From contig NC_086108.1 of NCBI RefSeq assembly GCF_963921235.1, forward strand, positions 29,018,001 to 29,082,000: a stretch of 64,000 nucleotides of DNA. Reading direction: 5' to 3'. Position 1 is the first letter of the stretch, and each line of letters starts with the position of its first letter. The notes below the pieces were generated by a model that was not told where the DNA came from, made no database searches, and was given only the letters and a program-made list of their open reading frames with translations. Origin of the DNA: Mobula hypostoma (lineage: Eukaryota). This document shows positions 8,051 to 62,750 of this stretch, piece by piece. Made by a program: the position numbers and the translations under genes.

Positions 8051-8224
8051 ATCCTCCACCGTCCACAGAGACTGTGCCTTTTGGATCACAGACGCTGTGC
8101 TCCACTGGAAGCAGAATGTCGGTGGTGGAGTTGGTGGTGTCCTCCAGTGTTTGCTCAGCGGAAGACAAGATATATTGTGTTTGACTGCAGATTACTACTG
8201 CAACATTGCTGCTAATGATGTGGT

Positions 8225-9146: not shown

Positions 9147-9203
9147 TCACGTTCACCATCATTATTCACAACAGTTGGTCCAAACAGCTAACTCATTCCC
9201 AAT

Positions 9204-14000: not shown

Positions 14001-16526
14001 GTGGTTAAGAAAGCATACAGTACATTGGCCTTCATCAATCATGAGATTGAGTTTAGGAGCCAAGAGGTAATGCTGCAGTTATATAAGACCCTGGTCAGAC
14101 CCCACTTGGAGTAGTGTGCTCAGTTCTGGTCGCCTCACTGCAGGAAGGATATGAAAACCATAGAAAGGGTGCAGAGGAGATTTACAAGGATGTTGCCTGG
14201 ATTGGGGAGCTTGCCTTATGAGAATAGGTTGAGTGAACTCAGCGTTTTTTCCTTGGAGCGACGGAGGCTGAGGGGTGACCTGATAGAGGTGTATAAGATG
14301 ATGAGAGGCAATGATCGTGTGGATGGTCAGAGGCTTTTTCCCAGGGTTAAAATGGCTAGCAAAAGAGGGCACAGTTTTAAGGTGCTTGGAGGTAGGTAGA
14401 GAGGAGATATCAAGGGTAAGTTTTTTACGCAGAGAGTGGTGAGTGCGTGGAATGGGCTGCCAGCGACGGTGGAGGAGGTGGATACGATAGGGCCTTTTAA
14501 GAGACTCCTGGACAGGTATATGGAGCTCAGAAAAATAGAGGGCCATGGGTAACCCTAGGTAATTTCTCAGGTAAGGACATGTTCGGCACAGCTTTGTGGT
14601 GTAGGTTTTCTATGTTTCTGTGTTTTGTCAGCCACGGTTGCCTACCCCTGTCACTTGAGAACTTCTTCCTCTGTGGGACATAGCTATCCTGTGCCTTGTG
14701 AACTGTTCCCAGAAACATCAGCCACCTGTGCTCTGCCATCATCTCCACCAGTATGCTCCTCCAATCCACCTGGGCAAGCTCCTCTCTCATTCCTCTGTAA
14801 TTCCCTTTATTCCTTTGTGATACTGATACATATGTCGCATGCTTCTCCCTCTCTAACTGTAGTATGAATTCAATCATATTATGATCACTATTTCCTAAGG
14901 GTTCCTTTATATTAGGCTTCCTAGTAAGATCTGGGTTATTACATCTCTTACCAACAAAGCCACACTGCTGCCTATGCCTTCCTTCCTATCCTTTTGATAC
15001 AAAGTATATCCTTTGATGTTAAGCACCCAACCATGACCTTGGTTCAGCCATGACTCAGTGATGCCCACAACATCATACCAACCATTCTCTAATTGTACCA
15101 CGTTTGTCCACCTTATTCCTAATGCTACACACATTTAAATACAGCACCTTCAGTCCTGCGTTCTTTACCCTTTTGAATTTTGCCTCTGTGGTACAATTTA
15201 ACTCTTTGCTCTGTCTGCATTTGTATCAAATCATTGGCTTGTCCTTCTTCACATTCATGTTATACTCATCATCCACTTGTAAGCCTGCTGGCTCATCCTC
15301 ATCTCTATCAAGCTGGTTCCCAGCCCCCTGCCATATTAGTTTAAACCACTCCCAACAGCTCTTGTAAATCTGCCCTCAAGAATATTGGTCCCCCTCAGAT
15401 CCAAGTGCTGCCCATCCTTTTTGTACAGGTCCCTCCTGCCCCAGAAGAGGTCTCAATTATCCAGAAATCTGAGTCTCTGACCCCTGCTCCAATTCTTCAG
15501 CCACACATTTATCTGCCACCTCATTCTATTCCTATCCTCGCTGTCACATGGCACAGGCAGCAATCCCGAGATTACTACCTTTGAGATCCTGCTTCTCAGC
15601 TTCCTTCCTAACTTTCTACGTTCTTTTTTCAGGACCTCCTCCCTTTTTCTTTCTATGTTTTGGTATTAATATGTACCACAACTTCTGGCTGCTCACCCAA
15701 CCTTTTCAGGATATTGTGGATGCATCCAGAAACATCTCAGAGCCTGGCACCTGGAAGGCAAACTACCATCCGTCTTTCCCTTTGCATCCACTGAATGGCC
15801 TATCTGTCCCCCGGACTATACGGTACCCTATAACTGCTGTCATCCTCTTCTGTTCCCTACCCTTCTGTGTCACAGGGGCCAGACTCAGTGCCAGAGGCAC
15901 GGCTGCTGTTGCTTCTCCGAGGCAGGTCATCCCCCCACCCCAAACATTACTCAAAATGGACTATTTATTATTGAGGGGGATGGCTACAGGAGTGCTCCCC
16001 ATTATCTGATTTTCCCCCTCCCCTCTCCTGACAGTCACCCATTTATCTGTCTCCTGTAGCCTTGGGGTGACTACCTCCCTGTAATTCCTGTCTATCACTG
16101 CCTCACTTTCACTAACAAGCTGAAGGTTATCGAGCTGCACCTCCAGTTGCCTAACACGATTTCTAAGGAGCTGCAGCTCGATGCATCTGGTGCAGACGTG
16201 GCCATCGGCGAGGCTGGAAGTCTCCTGGACATCCCACATCTGACACCCAGAACAGAACACTGGCTCTGTAGTCACATCCCCTTTTCTCTCTGGAGCTGAC
16301 TAAGAAATAAGGAATGAGCTTACCTAGAATCTGCCTGTACTCACTGAAGCCCTGTTGAGCCAAAGCCTTCCTACTGTGACTTGGACTACTCCAACGATGA
16401 CTGCTTCCATGATGATTGCTCCGCTTGGCCGTACCTCTCTTTTATAGAGACTGGGTTTCCTGTCGAAAATCTTTGTCGGACATGTGTGGGAATGCTCCGG
16501 CTGTATCTGTGCGGTTTTCCAATCAA
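11037..16526 (-). mobile_element. near full-length, frameshifted CR1 LINE (ORF1 zinc finger/SGNH esterase, ORF2 APE + RT), interrupted by 13047-14623
   Basis: ORF1 CSGCQMW...CTRCIELQLL (15961-16275) and AVIGYRIVRGTDRPF (15763-15954); APE YDVVGITESWL (14907-15134); RT YLDFQKAFDKVPH, KFVDYMK. TGACC TSD at 11032-11036/16527-16531 splits an old PLE repeat. Confidence 0.9.
13047..14623 (+). mobile_element. 5'-truncated CR1 LINE inserted antisense into the older CR1
   Basis: ORF 12945-14114 has an RT domain (YMDFSKAFDKVPH, KFADD); TTTGT TSD at 13042-13046/14624-14628; host reads through as TTCCTTTGT|CAGCCACGG. Confidence 0.95.
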
Positions 16527-17123
16527 TGACCTGCTGATTGTTTTCAGAATTCTCTTTTAGTTTGATCTGAATGATGAATCAGAACTTACTTTAAAAAAAT
16601 GGATTACTGTGTAACATAGTGGAGGGAGGCATCGATATCCAACCAAAATGTTTGTTGACTTCTTGAGAATGTTCGAGATTCAGAACTACAGAATAAAAAA
16701 ACGTCTAATTCCTCACATTGCTCTGAGCATCTTCTTATACTTCTGCCAGGATTTCTCTTTTTGAACAAGATATATCACAGTTTGAAGTAAAGTTAGGGGG
16801 AAAGAAAGCAACCGTTAATTGATTTGGAGCATAATTAAATTGCAGCGATAACTCCCGTTGTAATACGTTAGTTTTAAGGATTAAGCTGACAGTTAGTGCT
16901 TTCAGTTCACAAAGCATTCTTAACACTGTTAATGATTTTCTTAGATTCATTTCATAGTCACTAAGACATCAAACTGATATTGAATATCATCTGTCATCAC
17001 CTTACTCAGGGAACTTGATATGGTGTAACAATACGAGCTGAACTCAACAGTAGTACATTATCCAGCATGGGCTGATCCTTTCCAATACGTACTAAATGGG
17101 TAGTCAAGTAGTTGAAGTTATTA

Positions 17124-17755
17124 AAAAGTCCTTCCAGGTGAGGCAAAACTTCACCTGTGAATCAGCAAGGTTTGTCTATTGTGTTTGGTGCTCACGATCC
17201 AGCCTGCTCGGCATGAGTGAGACCCATTGTAAATTGGGAGACTGCTTCATCAAGAACTTGCACTCCATCTGCTTAAAGCGGAACTTCCCTGTGGCCAAAC
17301 ATGTTAATTCCCATTCCCATTCTTGTTCTGACATGTTGGTCCGCTCAGGGCGAGGAGCAATTCCTTAAATTCTGTCTGGATAGCCTCCAACCTGTTGGCA
17401 TGAATATTGATTTCTCCTTCCAGTAAAAGAAATTCCCTCATCCTCCCCTCTTCTTCTATTCCCTATGCTGTCCCCTTACCTCTTCTCACCTGTCTGTGAC
17501 CTTCCCTGGGTTGCCCTCCTCCTCCCCTTTCTCTTACAATCCATTCTCCTCTCCTATCACATTCCTTCTTTCCAATTTAACTGGCTTCACCTTCACCTTT
17601 TAACTATCCTCCTTCCCCTCTCTTTTTTATTCAGGCTTCTTCCCTCTTCTTTTCCAGTCCTGAAGAAAGTTGTCAGTCTGAAACATCAACTGTTTATTCA
17701 TTTCCATAGATGCTGCCTGACCTGTTGAGTTCTTCCAGCATTTTGTGTGTGTTAT
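17124..17755 (+). mobile_element. Penelope-like element 3' part (GIY-YIG relic + terminal repeat)
   Basis: SFQVRQNFTCESARFVYCVWCSR...ETHCKLGDCF; pyrimidine-rich 3'UTR; degenerate hammerhead-like GTCCTGAAGAAAGTTGTCAGTCTGAAACATCAACTG near 17657-17692. Confidence 0.85.
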
Positions 17756-17914
17756 TTGATGATAGCCAAGCATAAGTGACATCAGTAAAATCTATTCATT
17801 GATGACTATCATAAGGAATTATGCTAAGGGATATGGTATTTATTTTATGACCAGTGATGCACCATAAGTTATTGGATGAACATCTTACTGTTTTCTATAT
17901 CCATTAATGATTAG

Positions 17915-18825: not shown

Positions 18826-21800
18826 CCAAAAATGAAGAAATACTCAAATGGTAAAAGAGTACAACTGTGGCTGACAGGGCAAATCAAAGCTATTGTAGAA
18901 GCAAAAGAAAGGGTATACAATAAAGCAAAAATTAGTGGGAAGGTAGAGGATTGGGAAGTCTCTAAAAACCTACAGAGAGCAACTAAAAAAAATTTAGAAG
19001 GCAAAAGATGAAATACGAAAGCAAGCTGGCAAATAATATCAAAGTGGATAGTAGAAGCTTTTTCAAGTATGTTAACAATACAAGAGAAATGAGAGTGAAT
19101 ATAGGACTGCTAGAAAATGAGGCAGGGGAAATAATAACGGGAGACAAGGAGATGGCTGATAAACTAAATGAGTATTTTGTGTCATTCTTCACTATGGAGG
19201 ACACTAGCAGTATGCCTGATGCTGTAGTGTGTGAAGGAAGAGAAGTGGGTGCAGTTACTGTTACAAGAGAGAAGGTGCTGAAAAAGCTGAGAGGTCTAAA
19301 GGTACATAAGTCACCCAGACCGGATGAACTGCATCCTAGGGTTCTGAAAGAGGCAGCATTAGAGATTGTGGTGGCACTAGAAATTATCTTTCAAAAATCA
19401 TTGGACTCTGGCATGGTGTCAGAGGACTGGAAAATTGCAAATGTTACTCCACTCCTTAAGAAAGCAGGAAGGCAGCAGAAAGGAAATTATAGACCAGTTA
19501 GCCTGACCTCAGTGGTTGGGAAGACGTTAGAGTCAATTGTTAAGTATGAGGTGATGGAATACTTGGTGACACAGGACAACATAGTATAAAGTCAGCATGG
19601 TTTCCTTCTGGGAAAATCCTGCCTGATGAAACTATTGGAATTCTTTGAGGAGATTACAAGTAGGATAGATAACGGGGATGCAGTGTGTGTTGTATATTTG
19701 GACTTTCAGAAGGGCTTCAACAAGGTGCCACACATGAGGTTGCTTACCAAGTTAAGAGCCCATAGTATTACAGGAAAGTTACTAACATGGTTAGAGCATT
19801 GGCTGATTGGTAGGATTCAGAGTGGGAATAAAAGAATCCTTTTCTGGTTGGCTGTCAGTGACTCGTGGTTTTCCGCAGGGGTCGGTGTTAGGATGACTTC
19901 TTCTTATGCTGTATATAAATGATTTAGATGATGGAATAGATGGCTTTGTTGCCAAGTTTGCAGATGATATGAAGATTGGTGGAGAGGTATGTAATGTTGA
20001 GGAAACAGGTAGAATGCAGAAGGACTTAGATTAGGAGAATGGGCAAGAAAGTAACAAATGAAATACAATGTTGGAAAATGCATGGTCAAGTACTTTGGTA
20101 GTAGAAATAAATGTGTGGAATATTTTCTAAATGGGGAGAAAATCCAGGAATCTGAAATGCAGAGGGACTTGGGACTCCTTGTGCAGAACACCCTAAAGGT
20201 TAACTTGCAGATTGAGTCGGTGGTGAGGAAGGCAAATGCCATGTTAGCAATCATTTCAAGAGGTCTAGAATACAAGAGCAAGGATATGGTGCTGAGGCTT
20301 TATAAAACACTGGTGAGGCCTCACCTTGGGTATTGTGAACAGTTTTGGGCCCCTCATCTTAGAAAAGATGTGCTGGCATTGGAGAGGTTCCAGAGGAGGT
20401 TCACAAGGATGATTCCAAGAATGAAAGGGTTATCATACAAAGAACGTTTGATGGCTCTGTGTCTGTACTTGCTGGAATTCAGCAGGATGAGGGGGGATCT
20501 CATTGAAACCTTTTGAATGTTGAAAGGCCTAGACAGAGTAGATGTGGATAGGATGTTTCCCATGGTGTGAGAGTCTAGGACAAGAGGGCACAGCCTCAGG
20601 ATAGAGGGGCACCCTTTCAAAACAGAGATGCTGAGAAATTTTTTTAGGCGGCAGGTGATGAATTTGTGGAATTGGTTGCCACATGCAAATGTTACTCTGC
20701 TATTTAAGAAGGGTGGGAGGCAGCAGAAAGGAAACTATAGACCTGTTAGCCTGACATCAGTGGTTGTGAAGTTGTTGGAATCAACTGTTAGGGATGAGAT
20801 TACAGAGTAATCACATGACAAGATAGGCCAAAGCCAGGATGGTTTCCTGAAAGTAAAATCCTGCCTGACTAACCTACTGCAATTCTTTGAGGAAATTACA
20901 AGCAGGGTAGACAAAGGAGATGTAGTAGATGTGGTGTACTTGGACTTTCAGAAGGCCTTTGACAAGGTGCCGCAAATAAGGCTGCTGAGCAAGAAAGAGC
21001 CTGTGGAATTACAGGGTACTTACTAGCATGGCTGGAGCATTGGCTGGTAGGCAAAAAACAGAGAGTGTGAATAAAGGGATTCCATTCTGGCTGGCTGTCG
21101 GTTACCAGTGGAGTTCCATAGGGTCAGTGTTGGGACTGCTACTTTTTACAATGTATGTCAATGATTTGGAGTATGGTATTAATGGATTTGTGACTAACTT
21201 TGCCAATGATACAAAGATAGGTGGAGGAATGGGTAGTGTTAAGGAAACAGAGAGCATGCAGAGGGATTTAGCTAGTTTAGGGGAATGGGCAAAGAAGTGG
21301 CAAATGAAATACAATGTTGGAAAGTGTATAGTCATGCACTTTGGTGGAAGAAATAAACGGGCAGACTATTATTTAGATGGGGAGGGAATTCAAAATGTAG
21401 AGATACAAAGGGACTTGGGAGTCCTTATGCAAGACACCCTAAAGGTTAACCTCCAGATTGAATTGGTTGTGGGGAAGGTGAATGCAATGTTGGCATTCAT
21501 TTCTAGAGATATAGAATATAAGAGCAGGGATATGATGTTGAGGCTCTATAAGGCACTTGTGAGACCACACTTGGAGTACTGTGTGCAATTTTGGGCTCCT
21601 TATTTTAGAAAGGATATACTGACATTGGAGACGGTTCAGAGAAGATTCACAAGAATGATTCCAGGAATGAAAGGGTTACTGTATGAGGAATGTCTGACAG
21701 CTCTTGAGCTGTATTCCTTGGAGTTCAGGAGAATGAGGGGGGATCTTATAGAAACATTCCGAATGTTAAAAGGCCTGAACTGATTAGATATGGCAAAGTT

Positions 21801-22329
21801 ATTTCCCATGGTAGGGGATTCTAGGACAAGAGGGCACGACTTCAGGGTTGAAGAACATCCATTTAGAACTAAGATGCGGAGAAATTACTTTAGTCAGGAG
21901 ATGGTAAATCTGTAGAATTTGTTGCCACGAGCGGCTGTGGAGGCCAAGTCATTGGGTGTATTTAAGGCAGAGATAGATAGATTCTTGATTAGCCAGGGCT
22001 TCAAAGTTTATGGGGTGAAGGCAGAGGAGTGGGGATGACTGGAAGAATTGGATCAGCCCCCATGATTGAATGGGGTAGCAGACTTGGGCTGAATGGTCTA
22101 CTTCTGCTCCTATATCTTATAGCTGTGGAGGCCAGGTCATTGGATGTATTTAAGGCAGAGGTTGATAGGTTCTTGATTGGACATGGCATCAAAGGTTATG
22201 GGGAGAAGGCCAGAAGCTGGGGTTGAGGAGGAGATAGGAAAAAAGGATCAGCCATGATTGAAAGACGGAGCAGACTTGATGGACCAGATGGCCTAATTAT
22301 GCTCCTATGTCTTATGGTCTTATGGTCTA
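18826..22329 (+). mobile_element. CR1 LINE ORF2 3' part, interrupted by a second CR1 at 20688-22120
   Basis: ORFs 19008-19589, 19626-19922 and 20058-20516 (EDWKIANVTPL.KK...NYRPVSLTS, YLDFQKGFNKVPH); TTGCCACATGCA|GCTGTGGAGGCC continues at 22121; (TTATGGTC)n tail. Confidence 0.9.
20688..22120 (+). mobile_element. nested 5'-truncated CR1 LINE, same orientation as host
   Basis: Second RT copy starting at ANVTLLFKKG; ORF 21028-21783; own 3'UTR ending CTGCTCCTATATCTTAT. Confidence 0.9.
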
Positions 22330-25830: not shown

Positions 25831-26913
25831 ACACAATAGGGCAGTTATTAACATGGTGACCTGTCTGTTCTATACGCTGTAGACAGTCATCGTATACAGA
25901 CCTCTGCAAATCTATTTCTGATGGCAAGACATAGGGTCCTCCCAGTCAGTGGCCTTTGTGTCAGCTTATCCGTCACTTTTTACATCAAACCCTAATGCGA
26001 AATGCACAGCAGAATGCATGGGACCTAATTTCATCCTGTCATTCTGTGAGGTGACTATTTGGATTTGTTGTCGACTGTTATATCTCATACTTGAGCCACA
26101 TCAACCTACAGATTCTTGTTAAATTCAGATTTGCATTTAAGCAATATGTATATATCTTTGATGATGTTAAGCTCCATCAGTGTTTTGAAGTCATGACTTT
26201 AGACATTGGAGGAGGTTTCCCAGTTTGAAATGAAACACTTGCTATACTTTTGACCTTTGGGCTGATTAGGAGATGGAAACAAAAGCAATTTATTTCCAGA
26301 CAGCTATAATTCTGTTACCCAGTATTGCTGAAGAAAAGGATTAACAATGCTCAGAAGTACAGTTGTTTCAGTTTTCTCAATGTTCTTGGATGAATAATCC
26401 AGAGATTATTCATCCAAATTCGTGCCTTATCATGATGGTCTGAACATTTGAATTCAGTTTCAAAGATGTAGAAACTGCACATAAAGATGACATTAATGTT
26501 GGAATGTCCTAACATATATAGAACCGGTCCACTAACATACAAGCACTTCAAGAAGGAATCCTGCCAGCTTCATGCATTACGGTCCTTACATACGCGACTC
26601 AAGTCTCACAGTTAACTCTTAATTTCCCACTGCGTTTGGTTCCAAATGGATCTCATGTAAATTCCAATGTCTCATTGAGAAGTTGAATGTCAGTTTTTTT
26701 AAAAGAGCTGGCATCATCAGCAATTGTCACTCAGCCATTTAACAAAAAAGCAACCAGATCATCGGAAGGAAAATCCCCCCCAGTCCCCTTATTCAGCCTG
26801 GCCTAACTGTGATTCCATTGCACAACCAGCCTCTTACAGCTATTTAGATATAGTAAACTGCTTCAACAAGAACCATCTCACCATCTTTGGGCAAGTGGGA
26901 TGAGTAATGTACA

Positions 26914-27251
26914 GCAACACACATCAAAGTTGCTGGTAAACGCAGCAGACCAGGCAGCATCTCTAGGAAGAGGTACAGTCGACGTTTCAGGCCGAGACCC
27001 TTCGTCAGGACTAACTGAAGGAAGAGCTAGTAAGAGATTTGAAAACTGGAGGGGGAGGGGGAGATCCAAAATGATAGGAGAAGACAGGAGGGGGAGGGAT
27101 GGAGCCAAGAGCTGGACAGGTGATTGGCAAAAGGGATATGAGAGGATCATGGGACAGGAGGTCCGGGAAGAAAGGCAAGGGGGGGGAACCCAGAGGATGG
27201 GCAAGGGGTATATTCAGAGGGACAGAGGGAGAAAAAGGAGAGTGAGAGAAA
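26914..27251 (-). mobile_element. Penelope-like terminal-repeat insertion
   Basis: Highly similar to 40920-41250; 12-bp TSD GAGTAATGTACA (26902-26913/27252-27263). Confidence 0.9.
26976..27017 (-). ncRNA. minimal type I hammerhead ribozyme motif (PLE-associated)
   Basis: Minus strand reads CAGTTAGTC-CTGACGA-AGGGTCTCGGCCT-GAAA-CGTC-GACTG: core CUGANGA/GAAA, stem II, GUC cleavage triplet, stem I GTC/GAC. Confidence 0.7.
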
Positions 27252-27371
27252 GAGTAATGTACATATTGCCGCATGTTAGGAGTTAATTGAAAACAAAGCC
27301 AAAACATATTTGAAGTATTCCCTGCTCTTAAAGTTGATACTTGGAAAGAACTGAAATTTATAGCTTAATTA

Positions 27372-36065: not shown

Positions 36066-36565
36066 GGCATCACGGTACTGTAGCCATTACCATGATACTA
36101 TTACAGCTTGGAGTGTCGGATTAAGCATTCATTTCTAGCATCCTCTGTAAGTAGTTTGTACATCCATCCCGTGCAATGTGTGGGTCTTCTCCGAGTGCTT
36201 CAGTTTCTTCCCACAGTCTAAAGACGTACCCATTAGTAGGTTAATTGGTCATTGTAAATTGTCCCGTGATTAGACTAGGGTTAAATTGGGGGTTCACAAA
36301 CACAAGAAAATCTGCAGATCCAAACCAACACACACAAAGTACAGGAGAAACCCAGCAAGTCAGGCAGCATCTATGGAAAGGAGTTTTGGGCCAAGACCCT
36401 GGTACTGATAAAGGGTTTTGGCCCAAAATGTTGACTGTTTACTCTTTCCCATAGATGCTGCCTGGCCTGCTGAGTTCCTCTAGCATTTTATGTGTGTTTC
36501 TTTAAATTGGGGTTTGCTGGTTGGTGCGGCTCGAAGGGCCAATTCCACAGTTTATCTCTAACTAG
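36066..36565 (+). mobile_element. HE1-like SINE interrupted by a fold-back PLE unit (36295-36501)
   Basis: SINE core CAGTTTCTTCCCACAGTCTAAAGACGTACC; the insert is flanked by a ~13-bp TSD TTAAATTGGGG(G)TT (36281-36294/36502-36514). Confidence 0.75.
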
Positions 36566-40519: not shown

Positions 40520-40882
40520 CTTTGCACATACTGAAAGATAGAGCAACCACTGCTTTCTGAGGCAAATAATTCCAAGAATTTACAACTATCCGTACAGAGC
40601 AATTCTCCTCCTGACAGCCCTCTGTTCTGAAATACTGCTCTTTAGTTTGGGTGGTTAGGTTCCAAGTTAGAAGAAATAGCCCTTAACGTTTACCCTGCCG
40701 ATCCCTCTCAGAATGTTGCCTGCCTCTATGAAATCATCTCCCAACCCTCTTAACTCCTGTGAGCAAATAGCAATCTCACTCAACCTCTCCTCAGAGGACA
40801 ACACACTCTTTGCTGCATAAAGCAGGTGGTTCCTTTTTTTGATACAGAGACCTAAATTACATACAAACAAGGTCTAAAACAA
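40520..40882 (-). mobile_element. old CR1 3' fragment; probably continues at ~42140-42590
   Basis: ORF 40667-40870: LSSEERLSEIAICSQELRGLGDDFIEAGNILRGIGRV. Confidence 0.6.
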
Positions 40883-41257
40883 CGCAAACATGAGGAAAAC
40901 TGCAGAGGTTGGAATTTCAAGCAACACACATAAAAATTGCTGGTGAACGCAGCAGACCAAGCTGCATCTCTAGGAAGAGGTACAGTTGACGTTTCGGGCC
41001 GAGACCCTTCGTCGGAACTAACTGAAAGAAGAGATAGTAAGAGATTTGAAAGTGGGAGGGGGAGGGGGAGATCCGAAATGATAGGAGAAGATAGGAGGGG
41101 GAGGGATGGAGCTAAGAGCTGGAAAATTGATTGGCAAAAGGGATACGAGAGGATCATGGGACAGGAGGCCCAGGGAGAAAGAAAGGGGGAGGGGAGAAGC
41201 CCAGAGGATGGGCAAGGAGTATAGTGAGAGGGACAGAGGGAAAAAAAGGAAAGAGAA

Positions 41258-41300
<43 letters not shown>

Positions 41301-41770
41301 CGGATGGAGTATGAAGGGGAGGTGGGGCATTAACGGAAGTTAGAGAAGTCAATGTTCATGCCGTCAGGTTGGAGGCTACCCAGACGGAATATAAGGTGTT
41401 GTTCCTCCAATCTGACTGTGGCTTCATCTTTACAGTAGAGGAGGCCGTGGATAGACATATCAGAATGGGAATGGGACGTGGAATTAAAATGTGTGGCCAC
41501 TAGGAGATCCTGCTTTCTCTGGCAGACAGAGCATAGGTGTTCAGTGAAACGGTCTCCCAGCCTGCATCGGGTCTCGCCAATATATAGAAGGCCACATCGG
41601 GAGCACCGAACGCAGTATATCACCCCAGTCGACTCACAGGTGAAGTGTTGCCTCACCTGGAAGGACTGTCTGGGGCCCTGAATGGTGGTGAGGGAGGAAG
41701 TGTAAGGGCACATGTAGCACTTGTTCTGCTTACAAGGATAAGTGCCAGGAGGGAGATCGGTGGGAAGGGA
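40883..41770 (-). mobile_element. 5'-truncated Penelope-like element (GIY-YIG endonuclease + terminal repeat)
   Basis: 11-bp TSD GTC(T/A)AAAACAA (40872-40882/41771-41781); (AAAT)n at 41257-41300; mutated hammerhead motif at ~40983-41024. Confidence 0.9.
41330..41713 (-). pseudogene. Penelope-like GIY-YIG endonuclease domain
   Basis: FTCESTGVIYCVRCSRCGLLYIGETRCRLGDRFTEH...RLEEQHLIFRLGSLQPDGMN: VIY...CxxC..YIG pattern and GMN end typical of PLE endonucleases. Confidence 0.9.
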
Positions 41771-41789
41771 GTCAAAAACAATCGGATTT

Positions 41790-43589: not shown

Positions 43590-45215
43590 GTATTTACTCT
43601 GGAGAGGAAACAGAGTCTATCCATGTGAGCAAATGCAGCAGTAAGGTCATGGACCTCACAGATTTCAGAGGAGGAGGAGGTGTTTGCTGTCTTGAGGCAG
43701 ATTAGGGTGGATAAACTCCCAGGCCCTGACTAGGTGTTTGCTCAGACTCTGGGGGAGGGTAGTGCAGAAATTGCAGGGGCAATAGCAGAGATATTTCAAA
43801 CACCGTTAGCAATGGGTGAGGTGCCAGAGGATTGGTGGGCAGCTAATGTTGTTCTGTTGTATAAGAAAGATTCTAAGAATAAGCCAGGAAATTATAGGCC
43901 TGACATCAGTAGTGGGAAAGTTATTGAAAGGTTTTCTAAGGAACTGGATATATAAGTATTTGCATAAACAGGGACAGATTAGGGATAGTCAAAATGACTT
44001 TATACATGCTAAGTCGTGTCTGACCAATCTTCTTGATGTTTTTCAAGGAAGTTGCCAGGAAAGTCGATGAAGGCAAAGCTGTGGATGTTGTTTTCATGCA
44101 CTTTAATAAGGCCTTTGACAAGGTCTTGCTTGTGTGGTTGGTCAAGAAGGTTCAATCGCTTGGCATTCAAAAGGAGGTAGTAAATTGTATTAGACTTTGG
44201 CTACGCAGAAGAAGCCAGAGAGTGGTAGTAGGTGGCTGCCTCTGTCTGGAGGCCTATGACTAGTGGAATGCCACAGAGATTAGTGCTAGGTCCATTGTTT
44301 GTCATCTACATCAATGATCTGGATGTTAATGTGGTTAACTGGATCAGCAAATTTGGAGATGACACCAAAATTGGAGGTGTAGTGGACAGTGAGGGAAACT
44401 ATCAAAGCTTACAGTAGGATCATGACCAGCTGCAAAAAGGGGCTGAAAATAGCAGATAGTATTTAATGCAGGCAAGTGTGATGTTTCGCACTTTGGGAGG
44501 ATCAACAAGGGTAGGTCTTACATGGTGAGCGGTAGGGCATTAAAAAGTGAGAAATACGGATCAATAATTTCTTGAAAGTGGCATCACTGGTAAAAAGGTG
44601 ATAAAGAAATCTTTTGGCACATTGGCATTCATAAATCAATATATTAAGTACAGGAGTTGAAATTGTATCAGATGTTGATGAGGCCTAAGTTGAAGTATTG
44701 TGTGCAGTTTTGGTCACCTACCTACAGGAAAGATGTAACTTACATTGAAAGATGTAACTTACAGAAAAAATTTACACGGATGTTGCCAGGACTTGGGGAC
44801 CTGAGTTACAGGGAAAGATTGAATAGGTTTGGACTTCATTCCCTGGAATGTAGAAGATTGAGTGGAGATTTGATAGACAAAATTGTGAGGGGTATAGATA
44901 GGGTAAAGCTTTTTCCATTGAAGTTGGGTGAGGTTACAACTAGAGGTCATAGGTTAAGGGTGAAAGGTGAAATGTTTAAGTGGAGCATGAAGGGGAACTT
45001 CTTCACTCAGAGGGCGGTGAGAGTGTGGAACAAGCTGCCAGCACAAATGGTGGATGCGGGGTTGATTTCAACATTTAGGAGAAATTTGGATAGGTACATG
45101 GATGGGAGGAGTATGGAGAGTTATGGTCTGGGTGCAGGTTGATGGGACCAGGCTAATAATGCAGCACAGGCTAGATGGGCTGAAGGGCCAGTTTCTGTTC
45201 TGTTGTGTTCATGTC
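43590..45215 (+). mobile_element. 5'-truncated CR1 LINE, frameshifted RT
   Basis: EVPEDWWAANVVLLYKK, FMHFNKAFDKV, KFGDDTKIGG, YCVQFWSPTYRKD, FFTQRAVRVWNKLP. Confidence 0.92.
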
Positions 45216-46312: not shown

Positions 46313-47254
46313 TCCCTAATTACAAAAGTCATTACATTTCAAAAATAATTAATTGCCTGTAAAATCTATTTCGTGATCCAGAGATTTAGACTAAAAATCC
46401 AGAAGATATTGTGGTAGAGAAGTTGGGACCATGGGGACATTCTATTAAAGAAGTTTCTACAGCATCTGTTAAATAGATCCGGCTCAAGTCACCGTAGAGA
46501 GCATGTCCATCATTCCCTTTTTTTCCTCTATCCTTTTGTATGTGCACAGTTTTTTTGTTTTTTGGCAGGTTGGTTGTTTGTCTGTCCTGTTGGGTACCAG
46601 TTTTCATTGATTCTATAGTGTGTCTTTCATTTACTGCAAGAGAATGAATCTCATGGTTGTATATGGTGACATATCTGTACTTTGATGAGTTCACAGGAAA
46701 AATGAACAAAAGGCAATGCTGATCTGACCTCAATACTGACAACTGGTACCTAGAGCTTCAGTCAACATCCTTGTATGGTGTTAAACAGCGTCAGCATGTT
46801 GGGAAAGGACTTCTGTTACCTCCAGCACCACTACCACCATTACCATCAGTTGTTTGTTGATTTAGTCTGGCTTTGATGTGGTACATGCTTTCTATACTTA
46901 ATTCAAGTTGCAGAGGGGATACAAGTCCTGAAAAACTTTCTGCTATTGAGACTTGGTGTTATAGAGTCATAGGTCATTCAACACAGAAACAAGTCACTTG
47001 TCCCACCATTTCCCTGCCAACAGTCTATACTAACCCATTTATCTGCAATTGTTCCGTTTCTTCCTGTGCTTCAGCAAAACAGTGCTCATGAAGTCCTGAT
47101 AAAGGTTCTTGGCCCAAAACATTGGCTGTTTATTCCTCTCCATAGATGCTACCTTACTTGCTGAGGTCCTCCATCACAGTGGGAGTGTTGCTCAAGATTT
47201 CCAGCATCTGCAGAATCTGTTGTATTTGTCAGTGTTCACCTAGATCAGTGGTTC

Positions 47255-50400: not shown

Positions 50401-50415
50401 GAGGCAGCGTTTGCA

Positions 50416-55500: not shown

Positions 55501-56103
55501 AGGATCTACACACGTGTACATCACATGTAAAACTAAAAGCCAATAGAATAGGCTTTCAATGTGTTGCATCATTTTTCCATTCATGAAAATCAGCTGGTCC
55601 AGATGAAGAGTCAACCAAAATGTCGACTGCTCAGTTCCCTTCACAGATGCTGTCTAATCTGCTGATTTTCGACAACATTTTGTGTGATGGACGATAAATG
55701 ATGGCCCTTGGAAAATCATGCAGACACATCTACATCCTATGAAGACGTCCATAGTAACACACACAAAATGCTCGAGGAACGCATCAGGTCAGGCAGCATT
55801 TATGGAGAGGAATGAACTGTCAACATTTTGGGCTGAGATCCTTCATTAAGACTGGAAAGGAAGGATGAAGAAGCCAGAACATCCATCATCTTCCATTATA
55901 ATCATTTATTTTCTGGAATGGTGTTGAGGAGGGTAGTGTAGAGGTGCATCGCCTTGTTTGGCCCCTCATATGCCTCATCAAAGAAATAAATAAAGGTATC
56001 TGCTTCATTAATATTAAGTCCATGAGGAAGTCATTCAAATGAGCTGGCAGAGCCAAATTAACTTGCATCAAATGCTGGAGGAACTCAGCAGGTCAGGCAG
56101 CCT

Positions 56104-57013
56104 CGGGGGGTAATGATGAGTTTGAGTATAGAGAGGAAATTAAGAACCTGGTGGCATGGTGTGAAGACAATAACCTATCCCTCAACGTCAGCAAGACGAA
56201 GGAATTGGTTGTTGACTTCAGAAGGAGTAGCAGACTGCATGACCCAATTTACATCGGTGGTGCTCAAGTGGAACAGGTCAAAAGCTTTAAGCTCCTTGGG
56301 GTCAATATCACAAATGACCTGACTTGGTCCAACCAAGCAGAGTTCATTGCCAAGAAGGCCCACCAGCGCCTTTACTTCCTGAGAAAACTAAAGAAATTTG
56401 GCCTGTCCCCTAAAATCCTCACTAATTTTTATAGATGCACCGTAGAAAGCATTCTTCTAGGGTGCATCACAACCTGGTATGGAAGCTGTCCTGTCCAAGT
56501 CCGAAAGAAGCTGCAGAAGATCGTGAACATGGTACAGCACATCACACAAACCAATCTTCCGTCCGAGGACTCACTTTACACCGCACGCTGTTGGAGCAGT
56601 GCTGCCAGGATAATCAAGGACATGACCCACCCAGCCAACAGACTTTTCGTCCCTCTTCCCTCCGGGAGAAGGCTCAGGAGCTTGAATACTCATACGGCCA
56701 GATTTGAGAACAGCTTCTTTTCAACTGTGATAAGACTGCTGAACGGATCCTGACCCGGATCTGGGCCATACCCTCCAAATATCCAGACCTGCATCTCAGT
56801 TTTTTTGCACTACCTTACTTTCCATTTTTCTATTTTCTATTTATGATTTATAATTTAAATCTTTAATATTTACTAATTTTTACTATTTTTAATATTTAAT
56901 ATTTGTAAACCAGGGAGCGGGAAGCGCAGTATCAAATATTGCTGTGATGATTGTACGTTCTAGTATCAATTGTTTGGCGACAATAAAGTATAAAGTAAAA
57001 TAAAGTAAAGTAA
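56104..57013 (+). mobile_element. Rex1/Babar-like LINE, 5'-truncated
   Basis: ORF 56151-56753: WCEDNNLSLNVSKTKELVVDFRR...KKAHQRLYFLRKL...SFFSTVIRLLN; (TAAAG)n tail; AGCCT TSD (56099-56103/57014-57018) within a PLE repeat. Confidence 0.93.
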
Positions 57014-57375
57014 AGCCTTTATGGTAGAGAATAAACAGCCAATGTTTCAGGCCCTGACCCTTCCTTAGGGCTGGAAATGAAAGGGGGAGAGCCAGAATAA
57101 GAAGGCGTGGGATTGTGAAGGAATACATACTAGAAGGTGAAAGGAGAAGAGGAAGGAATCTGATAGGAGAGCAGAGTGGATCATGGGAGAAAGGGTAAGG
57201 GGAGGGGAACCAAGGGAGTGATGGGCAGGTGGGAAAAGAAGGGTAAGAGGAAAGCCAGAATACAGAATGGAAAAAGAGAGAAGGGGAAGAAATTACTGGA
57301 AGTTAGAGAAATCAATGCTCATTTCATCAATATGGAGGCTACCCATATGGAATATGAGGTGTTGCTCTTCCATTA
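57014..57375 (-). mobile_element. old Penelope-like 3' region; left part at ~56066-56103
   Basis: ATGTTTCAGGCCCTGACCCTTCCTTAGGGCTGGAA (decayed hammerhead region), purine-rich body, GGAGGCTACCCATATGGAATATGAGGTGTTGCTC (GIY-YIG end). Further fragments at ~34735-34850, 47090-47225, 55595-55690, 55755-55880 and 59235-59360. Confidence 0.75.
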
Positions 57376-60300
57376 CATGCTGCCTACTTTGCAGTCAATA
57401 GATGTGTTAGTCCTGCACCACAACCCAGAAGCCCATCATTGTAGGGTATGCAAATTCCAATGACATAACAGCTTATGAATTTGACGTTCCTTAAGAAAAA
57501 CCTAGAAATAAAAAAAACACTTGCAGCTGAAATATTGAGTCGATATGCAAATTCCATTTATCAATAAGTCACACACTAATATGGTTAATTCCCAGTTGCC
57601 CTCTGCTGTGACCTAGCTAGCCATCTGCTGTAATGAGACAATAATCACCAGCTTTGCTGGCAAAAACCACATTGCGAGAATTAATTAAAGCTAATAGTGA
57701 ATCACCATCAGTTTCCACGTCACTTGTCTCAACATTTTTGTGAAGCATAGAACAGCAATAATAGATTTTTATTTTCTCTCTGGCAGTGTCATTCTTCTCT
57801 CCACTAGTAATAATCACTAAAATGTAATCTAGTTAATGCGTATGTTTACATTAATACTTTTGATTCATTAATAGTTAATGAATTATCTGCTCTGTAATTA
57901 TGCTTCCCTCCTAGACGTAGTGGATGTGTCTGCTTCAGAATTAAAGGCATCTTTGATCCCAAGGGATTTGCACAGCAGCAAGAGATGAAGGATATTTAAA
58001 GACTATAAACAAGCATGTAAGGTAACTATTCACTGTGCTGATTCCAAATGTTTCTAATTGTTGTACATAAGATTTTTATCATTGTACATTATTTGTTCCT
58101 CTATCTCCCACAGCATTTCCAGCAACTAGAGATTGTGTAAACACTTTTTCTTAGTTATTGCATAATGATTCAGTTCTCTGACAGGAGCTAAGTGTTCTGG
58201 CGTTACTGTCTGGGCTTTCAATCTGATGAATGTAATTCACAGCACTATAGAACTAGAGGTGCAATGAGTTCATTCAACAAATGATAAACTTCTGAACAAC
58301 CAGAAGGTGACTCATGAACTGCTTTTTTTTTATTTTAAAAGAAAGCAGGTTTATTTGTAACCTGCTTCGGTTTCTCTCTAAGTAAGGTCTAATTACCACA
58401 ATCTGGTCAAATTAAAAGATGTCAAAGATGATTTAAGGGGAAGGTAGTGAGTGAAATCTCCCATGGATGAATATTATGTGTACTCAGCTTTGTAAATCTC
58501 CCCAAACCCTAATAAAAATATGGGTTAGTTTACTTCATGAACTACAAGAATGAAAAAGGTGCGTCCTGGTGAGCACTAAGATAATTACAGTTAGCTGGAA
58601 CTGTGGTTGGTTCCTCAGTGGTCTCTTAGATTATGAACCATCGCTGACTCCTGTCCAATGACTCCTGGTGGAAAATGAGGATATTTAAACATTAGTTAGA
58701 TTTCAGTTTGTCTCTTTTGTGGCATCCTGCCAGAAAGCAAAGTATCCGCTGTGTACAATTAGTCTCAGATGGTGATAGAGTCACCTTCAGTGTTATAATC
58801 CAGATTAGGACAGCAATTTCGGTGAAATTGGGGAGGTATTGGAGATGGGTGGCTGAAAGGAAGGTATATATTTTTTCTAATTTCTTGATTATCACTGATG
58901 TGCTTTGCTTTGTAATTTGCTGATAAGGTATCAACCGGGCCTGAGTTGTAAATACAGTCAGGGTGGAGCTTAAGTATAATTAGCAAACATCGAGGGCACA
59001 CACATATACATTTATAATGTGTCTGTATTTAAAATTACCTTCCAAAAGTAGTCAGATTTAAGTTCCAATTATGTCCCTGAATGTAACTGATTTCAATGTA
59101 GATTAGTATTAGTGTCAAATGGCCAAAGTATAAAAACCTGAGAAAAGCATTTCGCAGCACACAATCCTGCTTCAGAAGACAGTTTGGAAATGATTTCATA
59201 TCAGTACTTATCAACAAACAGTCTGAGTAATCAATCACAAACACAAGAAAGTCTGCAGAAATCCAAAGCAATGCACGAAATGCTGGAGGAGCTCAGCAGG
59301 CCAGGCAGAAAATAGAAGAAAATAAACAGTCGACATTTCAATCTGAAACCCTTCTTCAAGCCTGAGTAATGGCTTCCATACAGGATTAAAAACAGCTTTA
59401 TTTCACTTTAGGAAGCCTTCAGAATGACTTTGAACCAGCTGAATGATCCACATCAAATTGTAGCCTTCCAAAACAAGCCAATTTTTCAAAAGATTCATAC
59501 AGAATGCTTTTAACCTCTCTTGCCTTCTGAAGGGAGAATCACCTCTCAGTTGGGGGTGGTGTCATTTCATATCACTCAGATGTGAGGTATCAGCCAGTTA
59601 TTTAGTTTGTCCTGCGGGTAAGAAGCTAAGATTGAACACGCACATAGGCTAAATCTGGTAGTCTTAACTAATAGGAATATACATTGATTTGTAATTTCCT
59701 TTTAAATTTTACTAAACTGTGGTAAATTAGATGATCGCACAGTAAGATGGCTTCCAAAATGGTTCCTTTGTAACCATGGATTACCTCAGGAAATGTCCCT
59801 CTGTGGATGAGAGTGGGGGCCGTAGGAAGGACGAGCAACCTAACTGTGTCACCGTAGTTCAGGGAGCCGTTCAAGAGGGGGAAAGAAAAGAAATGTAGTG
59901 GTAATTGGGGATAGTATAGTCAGGGGAATAGACAGAGTTTTCTGTTGTGAGGATAGAGAGGCCCAAAGGCTGTGTTGCCTGCCTGGTGCCCGGGCATATC
60001 AGACCTGCAGAGAAATTTACAGTGGGAGGGGAAAGATCCAGTTGCTGTGGTCCATGTGGGTACCAATGACATAGGTAGAATGAGGAAAGAGGTTCTGCTG
60101 AGGGAATTTGAGCAGCTAGGGATTAAATTAAAAAGCAGAACTAAAAAGGTCATAATCTCTGGATTGCTATCTGAGTCATGTGCAAATTGGCATAGGGTTA
60201 AGAAAATTAAGGAGTTAAATGAGTTTACTTCATGAACTACAAGGCTGATGTGCACATCAAGGATTGATGTGTGAGAAGTGGGTTTGCATTCATGGAAAAT

Positions 60301-61123
60301 TGGCAGCAGTATTGGGGAAGGAGGGAACTGTACCAATGGGATGGGCTCCACCTGAACTGTGATGGGACCAGGATTCTAGCGAATCGCATAACTAGGGCTG
60401 TGGATGGGGTTTTAAGCTAAATAGTATGGGGGTGGGTTCAACAGATGGGAGAAGTAAAGTAAGAAAGAAAAGTATGGATAAAGATCAAGAAAAAGCAAAA
60501 GTTAAAAAAGAAAAAAGTAAGAGTGGAGTAAAGAAAAGTCAAGTGCAAAAGAGTAAAAGATTACAAGATTGTAAAAGCATAATGAGTGTAAAGGGCACTT
60601 TATTTGAATGCTTGTAGTAATCAAAACAAGATCAGTGAACTTGTGGTACAAATCAGTATAAGGGGGTATGATTTAGTGACCATTACAGAGACATGGTTGC
60701 AGGGTGGACAGGACTGGGAATTAAATATCCGAGGATATCAGGTAATACGGAAGGCTAGGCAGATAGGTAAGGGAGGTGGGGTAGCACTCTTAACTAAAGA
60801 TGAGATCAGGGCAATAGTGAGAGACTATTGGATCTAAGATCTAAGGAGCAGAATATTGAATCCATCTGGGTAGAGATTAGGAATAGTAAAGGGAAAAAAT
60901 CACTATTGGGAGTCGAATGATAACATTACAGTGGCACAGGCAATAAACAGAGAAATATCTGAGGAATGTAAGAATGGAACAGCAGTTATCGTGGGGGACT
61001 TTAACTTGCACATAGATTGTGTGAATCACGTTGGTCAAGGCAGTCCTGAGAAGGACTTCATAGAATACATCCATGATGGCTTTCTTGAACAGCATGTTAC
61101 TGAACCTACAATGGAACATGCTA

Positions 61124-61466
61124 CTCACATCAAAGTTGCTGGTGAACGCAGCAGGCCAGGCAGCATCTCTAGGAAGAGGTACAGTCGACGTTTCAGGCCG
61201 AGACCCTTCGTCCTGACTCTTAGCTCCATCCCTCCCCCTCCTGTCTTCTCCTATCATTTTGGATCTCCCCCTCCCCCTCCCACTTTCAAATCTCTTTCTA
61301 TCTCTTCTTTCAGTTCGTCCTGACGAAGGGTCTCGGCCCGAAATGTCGACTGTACCTCTTCCTAGAGATGCTGCCTGGCCTGCTGTGTTCACCAGCAACT
61401 TTGATGTGTGTTGCTTGAATTTCCAGCATCTGCAGATTTCCCTGTGTGTGTGTGTGTGTGTGTGTG
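61124..61466. mobile_element. fold-back Penelope-derived insertion with (TG)n end
   Basis: 11-bp TSD GGAACATGCTA (61113-61123/61469-61479; 13 bp with one mismatch); arm 61124-61212 is the inverse of ~61322-61410. Confidence 0.9.
61311..61352 (+). ncRNA. minimal hammerhead ribozyme motif (one stem III change)
   Basis: CAGTTCGTC-CTGACGA-AGGGTCTCGGCCC-GAAA-TGTC-GACTG. Confidence 0.55.
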
Positions 61467-62448
61467 AGGGAACATGCTATCTTAGATATGGTCCTGTGCA
61501 ATGAGACAGGTAGAATTAGTGATCTTGTAGTTAGGGATCCTCTTGTAAAGAGTGGTCACAGTATGGCTGAGTTTCTCATACAAATGGAGGGAGCAATAGT
61601 TCGATCTAAAATCAATGTATTATGCCTAAACAATGACGATTACAATGGGATGAGGGAGGATTTGACTAGTGTAGACTGGGAACACAGGCTATATGGTGGG
61701 ATGGTTGAGGAACAGTGGAAAACTTTCAAAGAGATTTTTCACGGTGCTTAACAAATTATGCTCCAATTAAAAACAAAGACAGTATGGGTGGGGAGAGCCA
61801 GCTTTGCATAACTAAGGAAACAAAAGAAGGCATCAAACTAAAAGCTCGTGCATACAAAGTCATCAAGAGTAGTGGGATACTGAAAGATTGGGAAAACTTT
61901 AAAAAGCAACAAAGAACTACTAAGCGAGCAATAAAGAAAGGGAAGCTAGACCAGCGAAAATAAACTAGCACAGAATATAAAAACCAATAGTAAAAGTTTT
62001 TATAATTATATAAAGCAGAAAAGGGTGAACGTGAAAGCAGGAGAATGAGAAGGGGGAAATTATATTGGGTAATGAGGAAATGGCCAAGGCTTTGAATGGC
62101 TATTTTGTGTCGGTCTTCATGGTGGAAGAAATATCTAACCTGCCAAAGAGAGATGTTATGGATGCGATGGGAGGTGAGGATCTTGATGCAATAGCTATCT
62201 GTAAAGAGGTAGTGCTGAGCAAACTTATGGGCCTGAAGATAAACAAGTCCTCTGGTCCAGATGGAATCCATCCCAGGGTACTGAAAGAAATGGCAGAAGT
62301 TATAGTAGAGGCTTTGGTGATAATTTACAACAATTCTCTGGATTCTAGGCAGGTCCCAGCAGATTGGAAGAAGGTGAATGTCATGCCACTGTTCGAAAAA
62401 AGATGTATGTGAAAGGCAGGTAACTATAAGCTAGTTAGTTTAACATCT

Positions 62449-62675
62449 CAAACAACAGGAATTCTGCAGATGCTGGAATTTCAAGCAACACACATAAAAG
62501 TTGCTGGTGAATGCAGCAGGCCAGGCGGCATCTCCAGGAAGAGGTGCAGTTGATGTTTCAGGCCGAGACCCTTCGAAGGGTCCTGACGAAGGATCTCGGC
62601 CTGAAACGTCGACTGCACCTCTTCCTAGAGATGCTGCCTGGCCTGCTGCGTTCACCAGCAACTTTTATGTGTGTT
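62449..62675. mobile_element. 227-bp fold-back Penelope-derived element
   Basis: Perfect 15-bp TSD GTTAGTTTAACATCT (62434-62448/62676-62690); ~90-bp inverted arms around a short spacer. Confidence 0.92.
62580..62615 (+). ncRNA. minimal type I hammerhead ribozyme motif
   Basis: GTC-CTGACGA-AGGATCTCGGCCT-GAAA-CGTC-GAC; predicted cleavage 3' of 62610. Confidence 0.65.
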
Positions 62676-62750
62676 GTTAGTTTAACATCTGTAGTTGGGA
62701 AAATGCTTGAAGCTATCATTAAAGAAGAAATAATGAAGCATCTGGAAACA

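What the first reader, a model, noticed from the sequence alone, without database searches (positions are those of the whole stretch)
26976..27017. Hammerhead ribozyme motif in the Penelope-like terminal repeat, in many copies across the window
Seen: minus strand CAGTTAGTC-CTGACGA-AGGGTCTCGGCCT-GAAA-CGTC-GACTG has the CUGANGA and GAAA boxes, a short stem II, stem I (GTC/GAC), a GUC triplet and only the palindrome ACGT where stem III should be. Intact or near-intact copies lie at 61311-61352 and 62580-62615; decayed ones at ~17657, 36400, 40983, 47092, 55820, 57038 and 59327. At 17124-17755 and 40883-41770 the motif is on the same strand as, and downstream of, the GIY-YIG ORF. Established: Penelope-like elements carry minimal type I hammerheads with palindromic stem III that cleave mainly as dimers. 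Inference: this genome has a high-copy ribozyme-bearing PLE family; about ten motif copies in 64 kb would imply a very large genome-wide load.
Basis: partly seen in the sequence, partly recalled or inferred. Interest (0 to 1): 0.7.

Follow-up and report, generated by a model that had tools for sequence, protein, structure and literature searches.

The report
Known minimal hammerhead in ray retrotransposon
The flagged bases are a real copy of the small self-cutting RNA motif that Penelope-like jumping genes are already known to carry, here in a dead, shortened copy in a ray genome, so the catch is correct but ordinary in kind.

Summary
Observation confirmed. 26976-27013 (minus) is a complete minimal type I hammerhead: all 11 invariant core bases, 4-bp stem II, 5-bp stem I, ACGU palindrome instead of helix III. 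It sits near the 3' end of a 338-bp 5'-truncated Penelope-like element (PLE) bounded by a perfect 12-bp target duplication. The element's endonuclease (41333-41788) has the GIY-YIG fold and the Neptune/Nematis CX4CxxC linker, and is 92% identical to a Mobula ray protein. Of 13 aligned, only the index copy keeps core, palindrome and stem II together; the others show CpG-biased decay. Diverged subfamilies match only over the hammerhead, and stem I covaries across 103 unrelated metagenome hits. This is the min-HHR class of Cervera and de la Pena 2014; this scan has noted it many times in this genome and in sharks. Cleavage was not tested, and the active fold is not thermodynamically favoured. One lead: 8 of 15 arms begin within -9..+7 of core C3 and none at the predicted cut, which suggests uncleaved templates and a termination hotspot at helix I. 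Interest low.

The parts
26976..27013 (-). Minimal type I hammerhead motif (index copy): stem I 27013-27009/26980-26976, CUGACGA 27008-27002, extra A 27001, stem II 27000-26989 with G10.1-U11.1 wobble, GAAA 26988-26985, ACGU palindrome 26985-26982, predicted cut between 26981 and 26980
26914..27251 (-). 5'-truncated PLE copy (pseudo-LTR only, short untailed 3' end) that carries the index motif
   Evidence: blastn 88% over 337 nt to the 41k copy; contig depth jumps only over 26908-27271
26902..26913 (.). Target site duplication, 12 bp, copy 1
   Evidence: identical to 27252-27263
27252..27263 (.). Target site duplication, 12 bp, copy 2
41333..41788 (-). 3' end of the PLE ORF: CX4CxxC linker, GIY-YIG endonuclease with CCHH residues (152 aa open)
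40880..41332 (-). Pseudo-LTR of the 41k copy with hammerhead (C3=41014; U4 and G1.1 mutated) and long tailed end
17108..17757 (+). Old-subfamily PLE fragment: broken GIY-YIG 17108-17417, hammerhead C3=17660 (palindrome and stem II decayed), short end
57036..57373 (-). Old-subfamily PLE fragment: last codons of endonuclease 57373-57296, decayed hammerhead C3=57068, 3' end replaced by other sequence
61113..61479 (.). Head-to-head inverted PLE insertion in a LINE: minus arm (untailed, starts inside the core) plus plus arm (tailed, C3=61320); 11-bp duplication 61113-61123 / 61469-61479
62434..62690 (.). Head-to-head inverted PLE insertion in a LINE: minus arm tailed, plus arm untailed (C3=62583); both arms start inside the hammerhead; 15-bp duplication 62434-62448 / 62676-62690
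36281..36512 (.). Head-to-head inverted old-subfamily insertion: minus arm tailed, plus arm untailed (C3=36405); both arms start inside the hammerhead; 11-bp duplication 36281-36291 / 36502-36512
47092..47229 (+). Short old copy starting at stem I, tailed; G8 and G12 mutated; 9-bp near-duplication (1 mismatch) at 47080 / 47230
55595..55691 (+). Short old decayed copy starting near stem I; boundary not fixed by a duplication
55749..55880 (-). Short old decayed copy, about 30 nt of upstream pseudo-LTR, C3=55850
59232..59361 (-). Short old copy starting at the core, tailed; 9-bp duplication 59223-59231 / 59362-59370
56047..56104 (-). 3'-end-only fragment of the same family, no hammerhead, inside a LINE ORF

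Best explanation
The motif is the minimal type I hammerhead (min-HHR) built into the pseudo-LTR of a Neptune-type Penelope-like retrotransposon that has amplified massively in a ray genome. It is under selection in the master elements, not in the scattered copies. Shown: anatomy, PLE context, sense orientation about 320 nt past the ORF stop, target duplications, conservation between subfamilies, CpG-biased decay of copies. Inferred from the literature: one motif has no helix III, so two copies (in a tandem pLTR-ORF-pLTR transcript, or in trans) pair through ACGU/ACGU, swap stem I strands and cut 3' of GUC, slowly and probably with help from the element's own protein. Reverse transcription primes from a GIY-YIG nick at one of two RNA sites about 65 and 100 nt downstream of the cut site, which gives untailed and tailed ends. 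Priming from both nicked strands gives the head-to-head inverts inside a target duplication. The index copy is an isolated 338-bp dead-on-arrival insert with no partner in cis and is most likely inert.
For: Complete core in the index copy. Endonuclease with GIY-YIG (Pfam PF01541, E 3.7e-4, 21.2 bits, just under the 22.6 cut-off) and CX4CxxC, 92% identical to a Mobula hypostoma protein whose upstream part carries an RT 'YIDD' motif. Motif in sense and downstream of the endonuclease in 3 of 3 window copies that keep both. In 122 metagenome loci picked on core plus palindrome only, the unspecified stem I pairs at 94%, 93%, 73%, 53% for positions 1-4 and falls to 25-26% at 5-6 (103 distinct hits, four Watson-Crick pair types). 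Three or more pairs form in 32 of 59 distinct flank sets against 8.1 (max 16) on shuffling. 18 of those 122 loci have a GIY-YIG hit, 16 of 20 motif-hit pairs in sense and upstream. Subfamily divergence begins at the hammerhead's edges (loose ends at 26975: 601 contigs; 27012: 840). Changes fall on CpG columns (33 of 126) more than on others (22 of 271), p 3e-6. All 3 inverts have one tailed and one untailed end, as described in PMC8557442 and explained in PMC11167929.
Against: No cleavage data for this motif. ViennaRNA does not favour the active fold: hammerhead-like monomer -7.0 against MFE -11.0 kcal/mol (probability 0.0006); double hammerhead -11.5 against dimer MFE -30.3; stem I pair probability 0.0 in longer context (a 2D model that ignores tertiary stacking). 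The index copy, 4 of 6 young window arms and about 68% of summed contig depth carry U at 11.1 (G-U in place of the conserved G10.1-C11.1). None of 15 arms starts at the predicted cut. No Rfam hammerhead hit. No full-length element or tandem pair in the window, and no RT phylogeny was made.
Confidence: 0.9

Rival explanations
1. The motif descends from a hammerhead, but in this ray family it is kept mainly as a non-catalytic signal (protein-binding or folding element, splice acceptor or RT stop next to the priming site). Cleavage plays little part in making new copies.
For: 0 of 15 arms begin at the cut site, 8 begin in the 5' half of the motif. G10.1-U11.1 is the majority form. The active fold is disfavoured. 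In the anole PLE, hammerhead mutants did not affect insertion in vitro and no RNA-seq reads ended at the cut (PMC11167929). A pyrimidine tract plus AG directly precedes stem I in both subfamilies, and the Drosophila virilis intron ends at helix I (PMC4209133).
Against: All catalytic bases and both stems are kept across subfamilies and across distant animals, with compensatory stem I changes, which is what selection for catalysis predicts. The anole motif does cleave when protein is added. This rival is compatible with the best explanation on identity and differs only on use.
Confidence: 0.3
2. The short copies are a separate non-autonomous SINE-like or retrozyme family whose unit starts at the hammerhead and is mobilised by PLE protein, not truncated PLEs.
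For: 6 of 12 insertion events have an arm starting in the hammerhead. Vertebrate retrozymes derive from PLE pLTRs and occur in one chondrichthyan (bioRxiv 10.64898/2026.07.22.740005). A few contigs show a head-to-tail repeat of the 35-nt motif.
Against: No tandem arrays in the window. The 5' starts scatter over about 16 nt and three sit at inversion junctions. Short and long copies share the same subfamily marks and the same two 3' ends, and both subfamilies have endonuclease-bearing long copies.
Confidence: 0.1
3. Chance resemblance to a hammerhead inside an ordinary repeat.
For: The bare two-box pattern is at chance level in the window; no Rfam hit; stems are short.
Against: It has the features that the min-HHR descriptor did not require (extra base 9a, G10.1, palindromic 15.2/16.2), the expected place in a PLE, and a covarying stem I in unrelated loci.
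Confidence: 0.02

Closest known systems
[quoted passage not shown]
   Same: Type I topology, no helix III, palindromic 15.2-16.2, extra base between 9 and 10.1, 4-5 bp helix I, place in the pLTR, mostly single truncated copies, some opposite-strand pairs close together.
   Different: Helix II is 4 bp here (7-8 bp in Schistosoma). The dominant young subfamily has G10.1-U11.1. Density is far higher (14 per 64 kb). Cartilaginous fishes are not named in the parts read; the supplement was not seen.
PLE hammerheads cleaving as dimers (Lunse, Weinberg and Breaker, RNA Biol 14:1499; paper not held, title seen in a reference list; summarised in PMC6765202, passages read)
   Same: Same motif class and the same proposed dimer mechanism.
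   Different: Activity of this ray sequence was not tested.
PAc, Poseidon element of Anolis carolinensis (Frangieh et al. 2024, PMC11167929; parts 1-2 of 4 read)
   Same: Hammerhead upstream of two RT start sites that give tailed and untailed ends; both target strands nicked and extended; uncleaved RNA used as template.
   Different: Poseidon clade without the CX2-5CxxC linker. Its ORF starts inside the hammerhead, which could not be checked here.
Neptune/Nematis EN+ PLEs (Craig et al. 2021, PMC8557442; passages read)
   Same: C-terminal GIY-YIG with CCHH, CX2-5CxxC linker, 5' truncation, inverted pLTRs, 30-40 bp tail at one end, hammerhead in the pLTR.
   Different: Neptune versus Nematis was not resolved by RT phylogeny here.
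Non-LTR retrozymes (bioRxiv 10.64898/2026.07.22.740005; part 1 of 5 and passages read)
   Same: Type I hammerhead derived from PLE pLTRs; found in one chondrichthyan.
   Different: Defined by tandem units that each carry a hammerhead; copies here are dispersed or inverted.

Membership tests
PLE min-HHR | CUGANGA and GAAA boxes plus UH, in type I order | tested here: met
   Index copy has all 11 invariant bases and C17; 4 of 13 aligned arms do
PLE min-HHR | No helix III; palindromic 15.1-16.1 | tested here: met
   ACGU in the index copy and in 4 of 6 young arms; 0 of 7 old arms keep it (CpG decay to ATGT or ACAT)
PLE min-HHR | Extra nucleotide between 9 and 10.1 | tested here: met
   A in 13 of 13 aligned arms
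PLE min-HHR | G10.1-C11.1 pair | tested here: inconclusive
   G-U in the index copy; C in 6 of 13 arms; C in about 32% of summed contig depth. Still a pair, but not the canonical one
PLE min-HHR | Helix I and II supported by covariation | tested here: met
   Met for the motif class: stem I 94/93/73% paired, stem II unspecified pairs 82/66% (related sequences are not independent). The ray subfamilies keep the same stem I sequence, so they show conservation, not covariation
PLE min-HHR | Located in the pLTR, sense to the ORF | tested here: met
   3 of 3 window copies that keep endonuclease sequence
PLE min-HHR | Self-cleavage as dimer | not testable with these tools
   Needs an in vitro assay; the only raw-read runs laid 0 reads and contigs cannot show ends
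EN+ Penelope-like element | C-terminal GIY-YIG endonuclease with CCHH | tested here: met
   PF01541 E 3.7e-4, below the gathering score; CxxC..H..H read from the translation
EN+ Penelope-like element | Telomerase-like RT upstream in the same ORF | tested here: inconclusive
   Absent from the window (all copies truncated); the 92%-identical homolog P0002 has a YIDD motif upstream; no Pfam RT hit on it
EN+ Penelope-like element | 5' truncation, inverted pLTRs, tail at one end | tested here: met
   3 of 3 inverts have one tailed and one untailed end inside 11-15 bp duplications
Neptune/Nematis clades | CX2-5CxxC linker before the endonuclease | tested here: met
   CKQNKCYMC in P0001; definition from PMC8557442
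Neptune clade proper | RT phylogeny | not tested
   No RT in the window; no tree built
Non-LTR retrozyme | Tandem units each with a hammerhead | tested here: not met
   No head-to-tail pair among 14 arms

The most novel reading that the evidence does not exclude
In this ray PLE family, cDNA synthesis ends or switches template preferentially at the 5' strand of hammerhead helix I and the CUGANGA box, not at the cleavage site. 8 of 15 arms (6 of 12 insertions, 5 of the 6 arms of the three inverts) start within -9..+7 of C3, and none at +28. The hammerhead region would then set the ends of most short and inverted insertions through an RNA 5' end, a splice junction or a protein-bound fold on uncleaved RNA. 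A genome with this many copies would give a nucleotide-level record to test whether PLE hammerheads cut the RNA that is reverse-transcribed.
Probability: 0.25. Interest if true: 0.45.

Novelty: new member of a known kind. Interest (0 to 1): 0.17.

Why it matters
As a kind it adds nothing: min-HHRs in fish PLEs were described in 2014. Its value is scale. 14 motif arms in 64 kb is about 220 per Mb if the window is typical, against a few thousand per genome reported for coelacanth and Xenopus. A young family with sharp target duplications offers very many natural insertion junctions. These could answer the open question of whether PLE hammerhead cleavage shapes the template RNA, which in vitro work on the anole element left doubtful.

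Tried and rejected
Rfam scan: no hammerhead model hit at E up to 10; the mir-789 hit (46 bits, gathering 100) is the 62.4-62.7k inverted insertion, rejected. Two-box pattern count: at chance level, not used as evidence. No whole genome is held, so no genome-wide count or subfamily tree. The ray-specific pattern found 0 matches in viral contigs. Two raw-read DNA runs laid 0 reads, so no test; the guessed-RNA run is contigs only and cannot show ends or strand. Summed contig depth (15.7-15.9 million over the motif, 8.4 on unique flanks) is not a copy number, as the tool states, and that run may be the assembly's own sample; used only as 'very highly repeated'. Whether core positions are free of variants is inconclusive because 17 of 57 rows were not shown. 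5'-end clustering at the hammerhead was not seen in metagenome families (4 of 89 hits share 10 nt or less upstream with a family mate), so it is not general; those hits were selected for an intact core. The splice-acceptor idea at stem I was not supported or excluded by the loose ends shown (679 rows hidden). Thermodynamic folding gave no support for the active fold. The Lunse et al. paper is not held.

Full report
Observation. By hammerhead numbering, C3 is 27008, the CUGACGA box is followed by one extra A (27001), stem II is GGGU/GCCU around a CUCG loop (27000-26989), then GAAA (26988-26985), C15.2-G16.2-U16.1-C17, and stem I UAGUC/GACUG. The predicted cut lies between 26981 and 26980. The two-box pattern alone is at chance level in this window (10 matches, 6.2 +/- 2.8 expected) and Rfam gives no hammerhead hit, so the case rests on context and structure. 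An nhmmer search with the 105-nt end unit gave 15 hits at E up to 1, 14 of them at E 2e-3 or better and one doubtful at E 0.42. A profile of the part downstream of the cut found one more arm without the motif (56047-56104), two weak hits at E 0.47 and 0.86 that I dropped, and one hit at E 0.45 in the reversed-window control.

What carries it. The index motif lies near the 3' end of a 338-bp insert (26914-27251) bounded by a perfect 12-bp duplication. The insert is 88% identical over 337 nt to the copy at 40.9-41.3k. That copy continues upstream into a 152-codon open frame (41788-41333) with a CX4CxxC linker and a GIY-YIG endonuclease (Pfam PF01541 E 3.7e-4, 21.2 bits against a cut-off of 22.6). 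Its best homolog is a Mobula hypostoma protein at 92% identity; 9 of the 12 hits are from Hypanus sabinus, 2 from Mobula and 1 has no species name, so the host is a ray. The linker marks the Neptune/Nematis clades (PMC8557442, passages); no RT tree was made. In all 3 window copies that keep endonuclease sequence (17.1k, 41.3k, 57.3k) the motif is on the same strand and downstream.

Structure evidence. I scanned metagenome contigs with a pattern that fixes the core and palindrome but leaves stem I and most of stem II free. Stem I positions 1-4 pair in 94, 93, 73 and 53% of distinct hits, with A-U, C-G, U-A and G-C all seen at position 1; positions 5-6 fall to 25-26%. Three or more pairs form in 32 of 59 distinct flank sets against a shuffled mean of 8.1 and a maximum of 16 in 5,000 shuffles; free stem II pairs form in 82 and 66% of 68 distinct cores. 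These hits fall into families and are not independent. 18 of the 122 loci have a tblastn hit to the ray endonuclease, and in 16 of 20 motif-hit pairs it is upstream on the same strand. So the motif is a general PLE min-HHR, and the ray sequence is one instance.

Conservation within the host. Window copies fall into a young group (6 arms) and an old group (8 arms, 7 aligned). Group majorities agree at 31 of 37 columns across the hammerhead, 11 of 18 just downstream, 4 of 14 upstream and 32 of 42 further downstream. In contigs of a public run whose unique flanks match the window with no difference (possibly the assembly's own sample), 132,678 records were laid, and the other subfamily stops matching at 26975 (601 contigs) and 27011-27012 (316 and 840), the edges of stem I; a guessed-RNA run shows the same edges (112 and 119). 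The upstream loose ends have low agreement and may include 5'-truncated copies. Individual copies decay neutrally: 33 of 126 cells differ at CpG columns against 22 of 271 elsewhere (p 3e-6). 4 of 13 aligned arms keep all 11 invariant bases, and only the index copy also keeps ACGU and a 4-bp stem II. Position 11.1 is U in the index copy, in 4 of 6 young arms and in about 68% of summed depth, far above the 10-16% seen at the listed CpG sites, so a master subfamily with a G10.1-U11.1 wobble is likely (inference).

Copy number. 14 motif arms in 64 kb is about 220 per Mb if the window is typical. Summed contig depth over the motif is 15.7-15.9 million against 8.4 on the flanks; the tool states that this is no copy number. 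Allowing up to 31-fold overcounting from overlapping short contigs still leaves about 60,000 (my inference). No genome was held for a direct count.

How it works. Established for the class (PMC4209133, parts 1-2 of 4 read; PMC6765202, passages): a min-HHR has no helix III, single motifs do not cleave, and dimers cleave weakly by pairing the palindromes. For the anole PLE (PMC11167929, parts 1-2 of 4 read), cleavage needed the element's protein, both target strands were nicked and extended, RT began at two RNA sites that define the tail, and hammerhead mutants still inserted. The window fits this. 3' ends come in a short and a tailed form. Three head-to-head insertions (36.3k, 61.1k, 62.4k) lie inside duplications of 11, 11 and 15 bp, each with one tailed and one untailed arm, as expected if both nicks prime. 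Against activity: ViennaRNA gives the hammerhead-like monomer -7.0 against an MFE of -11.0 kcal/mol, and the double hammerhead -11.5 against -30.3. This 2D model ignores tertiary stacking, but the result agrees with the low activity reported. The index copy has no partner in cis and is probably inert. Cleavage was not tested: two raw-read DNA runs laid no reads, and contigs cannot show ends.

One lead. 8 of 15 arms begin within -9..+7 of C3 (36.4k both, 47.1k, 55.6k, 59.4k, 61.2k, 62.6k both; the 62.6k minus arm read by eye because the alignment ran through the fold-back junction, and 55.6k has no duplication to fix its start). None begins at the cut (+28). Counting insertions, 6 of 12 are affected; three simple length models give P of 3e-6 to 4e-4 before correction for choosing the interval afterwards. 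Metagenome families do not show this (4 of 89). A pyrimidine tract and AG precede stem I in both subfamilies, and the D. virilis intron ends at helix I (intron context in PMC2377424, passages), but no splice junction was seen here. The sample is small and this stays a lead.

Novelty. The class, its presence in Neptune PLEs of fishes, the dispersed truncated copies and the opposite-strand pairs are all in the 2014 paper. A 2026 preprint reports hammerhead retrozymes in one chondrichthyan (part 1 of 5 and passages). Four literature searches showed no paper on this ray family; the supplements of the 2014 paper were not opened, those of the preprint are closed, and the Lunse et al. paper is not held, so any of them may list it. 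Earlier notes of this scan record the same family many times in this genome and in sharks; they are unchecked AI notes and were not used as support. Verdict: new member of a known kind, interest 0.17.

Noticed in passing
window 36281-36512, 61113-61479, 62434-62690: Three head-to-head inverted PLE insertions, each inside an 11-15 bp target duplication, each with one tailed and one untailed arm; 5 of 6 arms start inside the hammerhead.
   Followed up: partly
window 26989 (position 11.1): U in place of C at 11.1 is the majority form in laid contigs (about 68% in X1, 74% in X14), pointing to a successful master subfamily with a G-U closing pair of stem II.
   Followed up: partly
window 27012 to 26974-26978 (joints): A few contigs (depth 37-146 against 8.4 single copy) show the 35-nt hammerhead repeated head to tail, a possible natural minimal dimer elsewhere in the genome.
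   Followed up: no
window 27015-27040 minus; 17630-17657 plus: Pyrimidine tract plus CAG directly before stem I in both subfamilies, like a 3' splice site.
   Followed up: partly
window 49604-53821 plus: LTR-retrotransposon-like coding region in several frames with stops (gag-like, RT PF00078, integrase PF00665); similar 86-nt repeats at 49444 and 54835 may be its terminal repeats.
   Followed up: no
window 9200-9835, 11070-14600, 18990-22300, 43800-45140, 60700-63000: Many decayed LINE (CR1-like by recalled resemblance; RT PF00078 for 12930-14111) fragments; two of the inverted PLE inserts sit inside one of them.
   Followed up: no
window 2445-2564 plus and 8219-8332 plus: Two more old GIY-YIG fragments (tblastn E 5e-7 and 2e-5) with no recognisable hammerhead downstream.
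   Followed up: partly
proteins P0004, P0005, P0009, P0013: Ray gene models named as kinase-domain, mucin, chitinase-domain and ABHD14A isoforms include this PLE's endonuclease sequence: either exonisation or annotation artefacts.
   Followed up: no
L013 and L058 (601-681); L035, L043: Metagenome loci with inverted junctions at or near the hammerhead, like those in the window.
   Followed up: no
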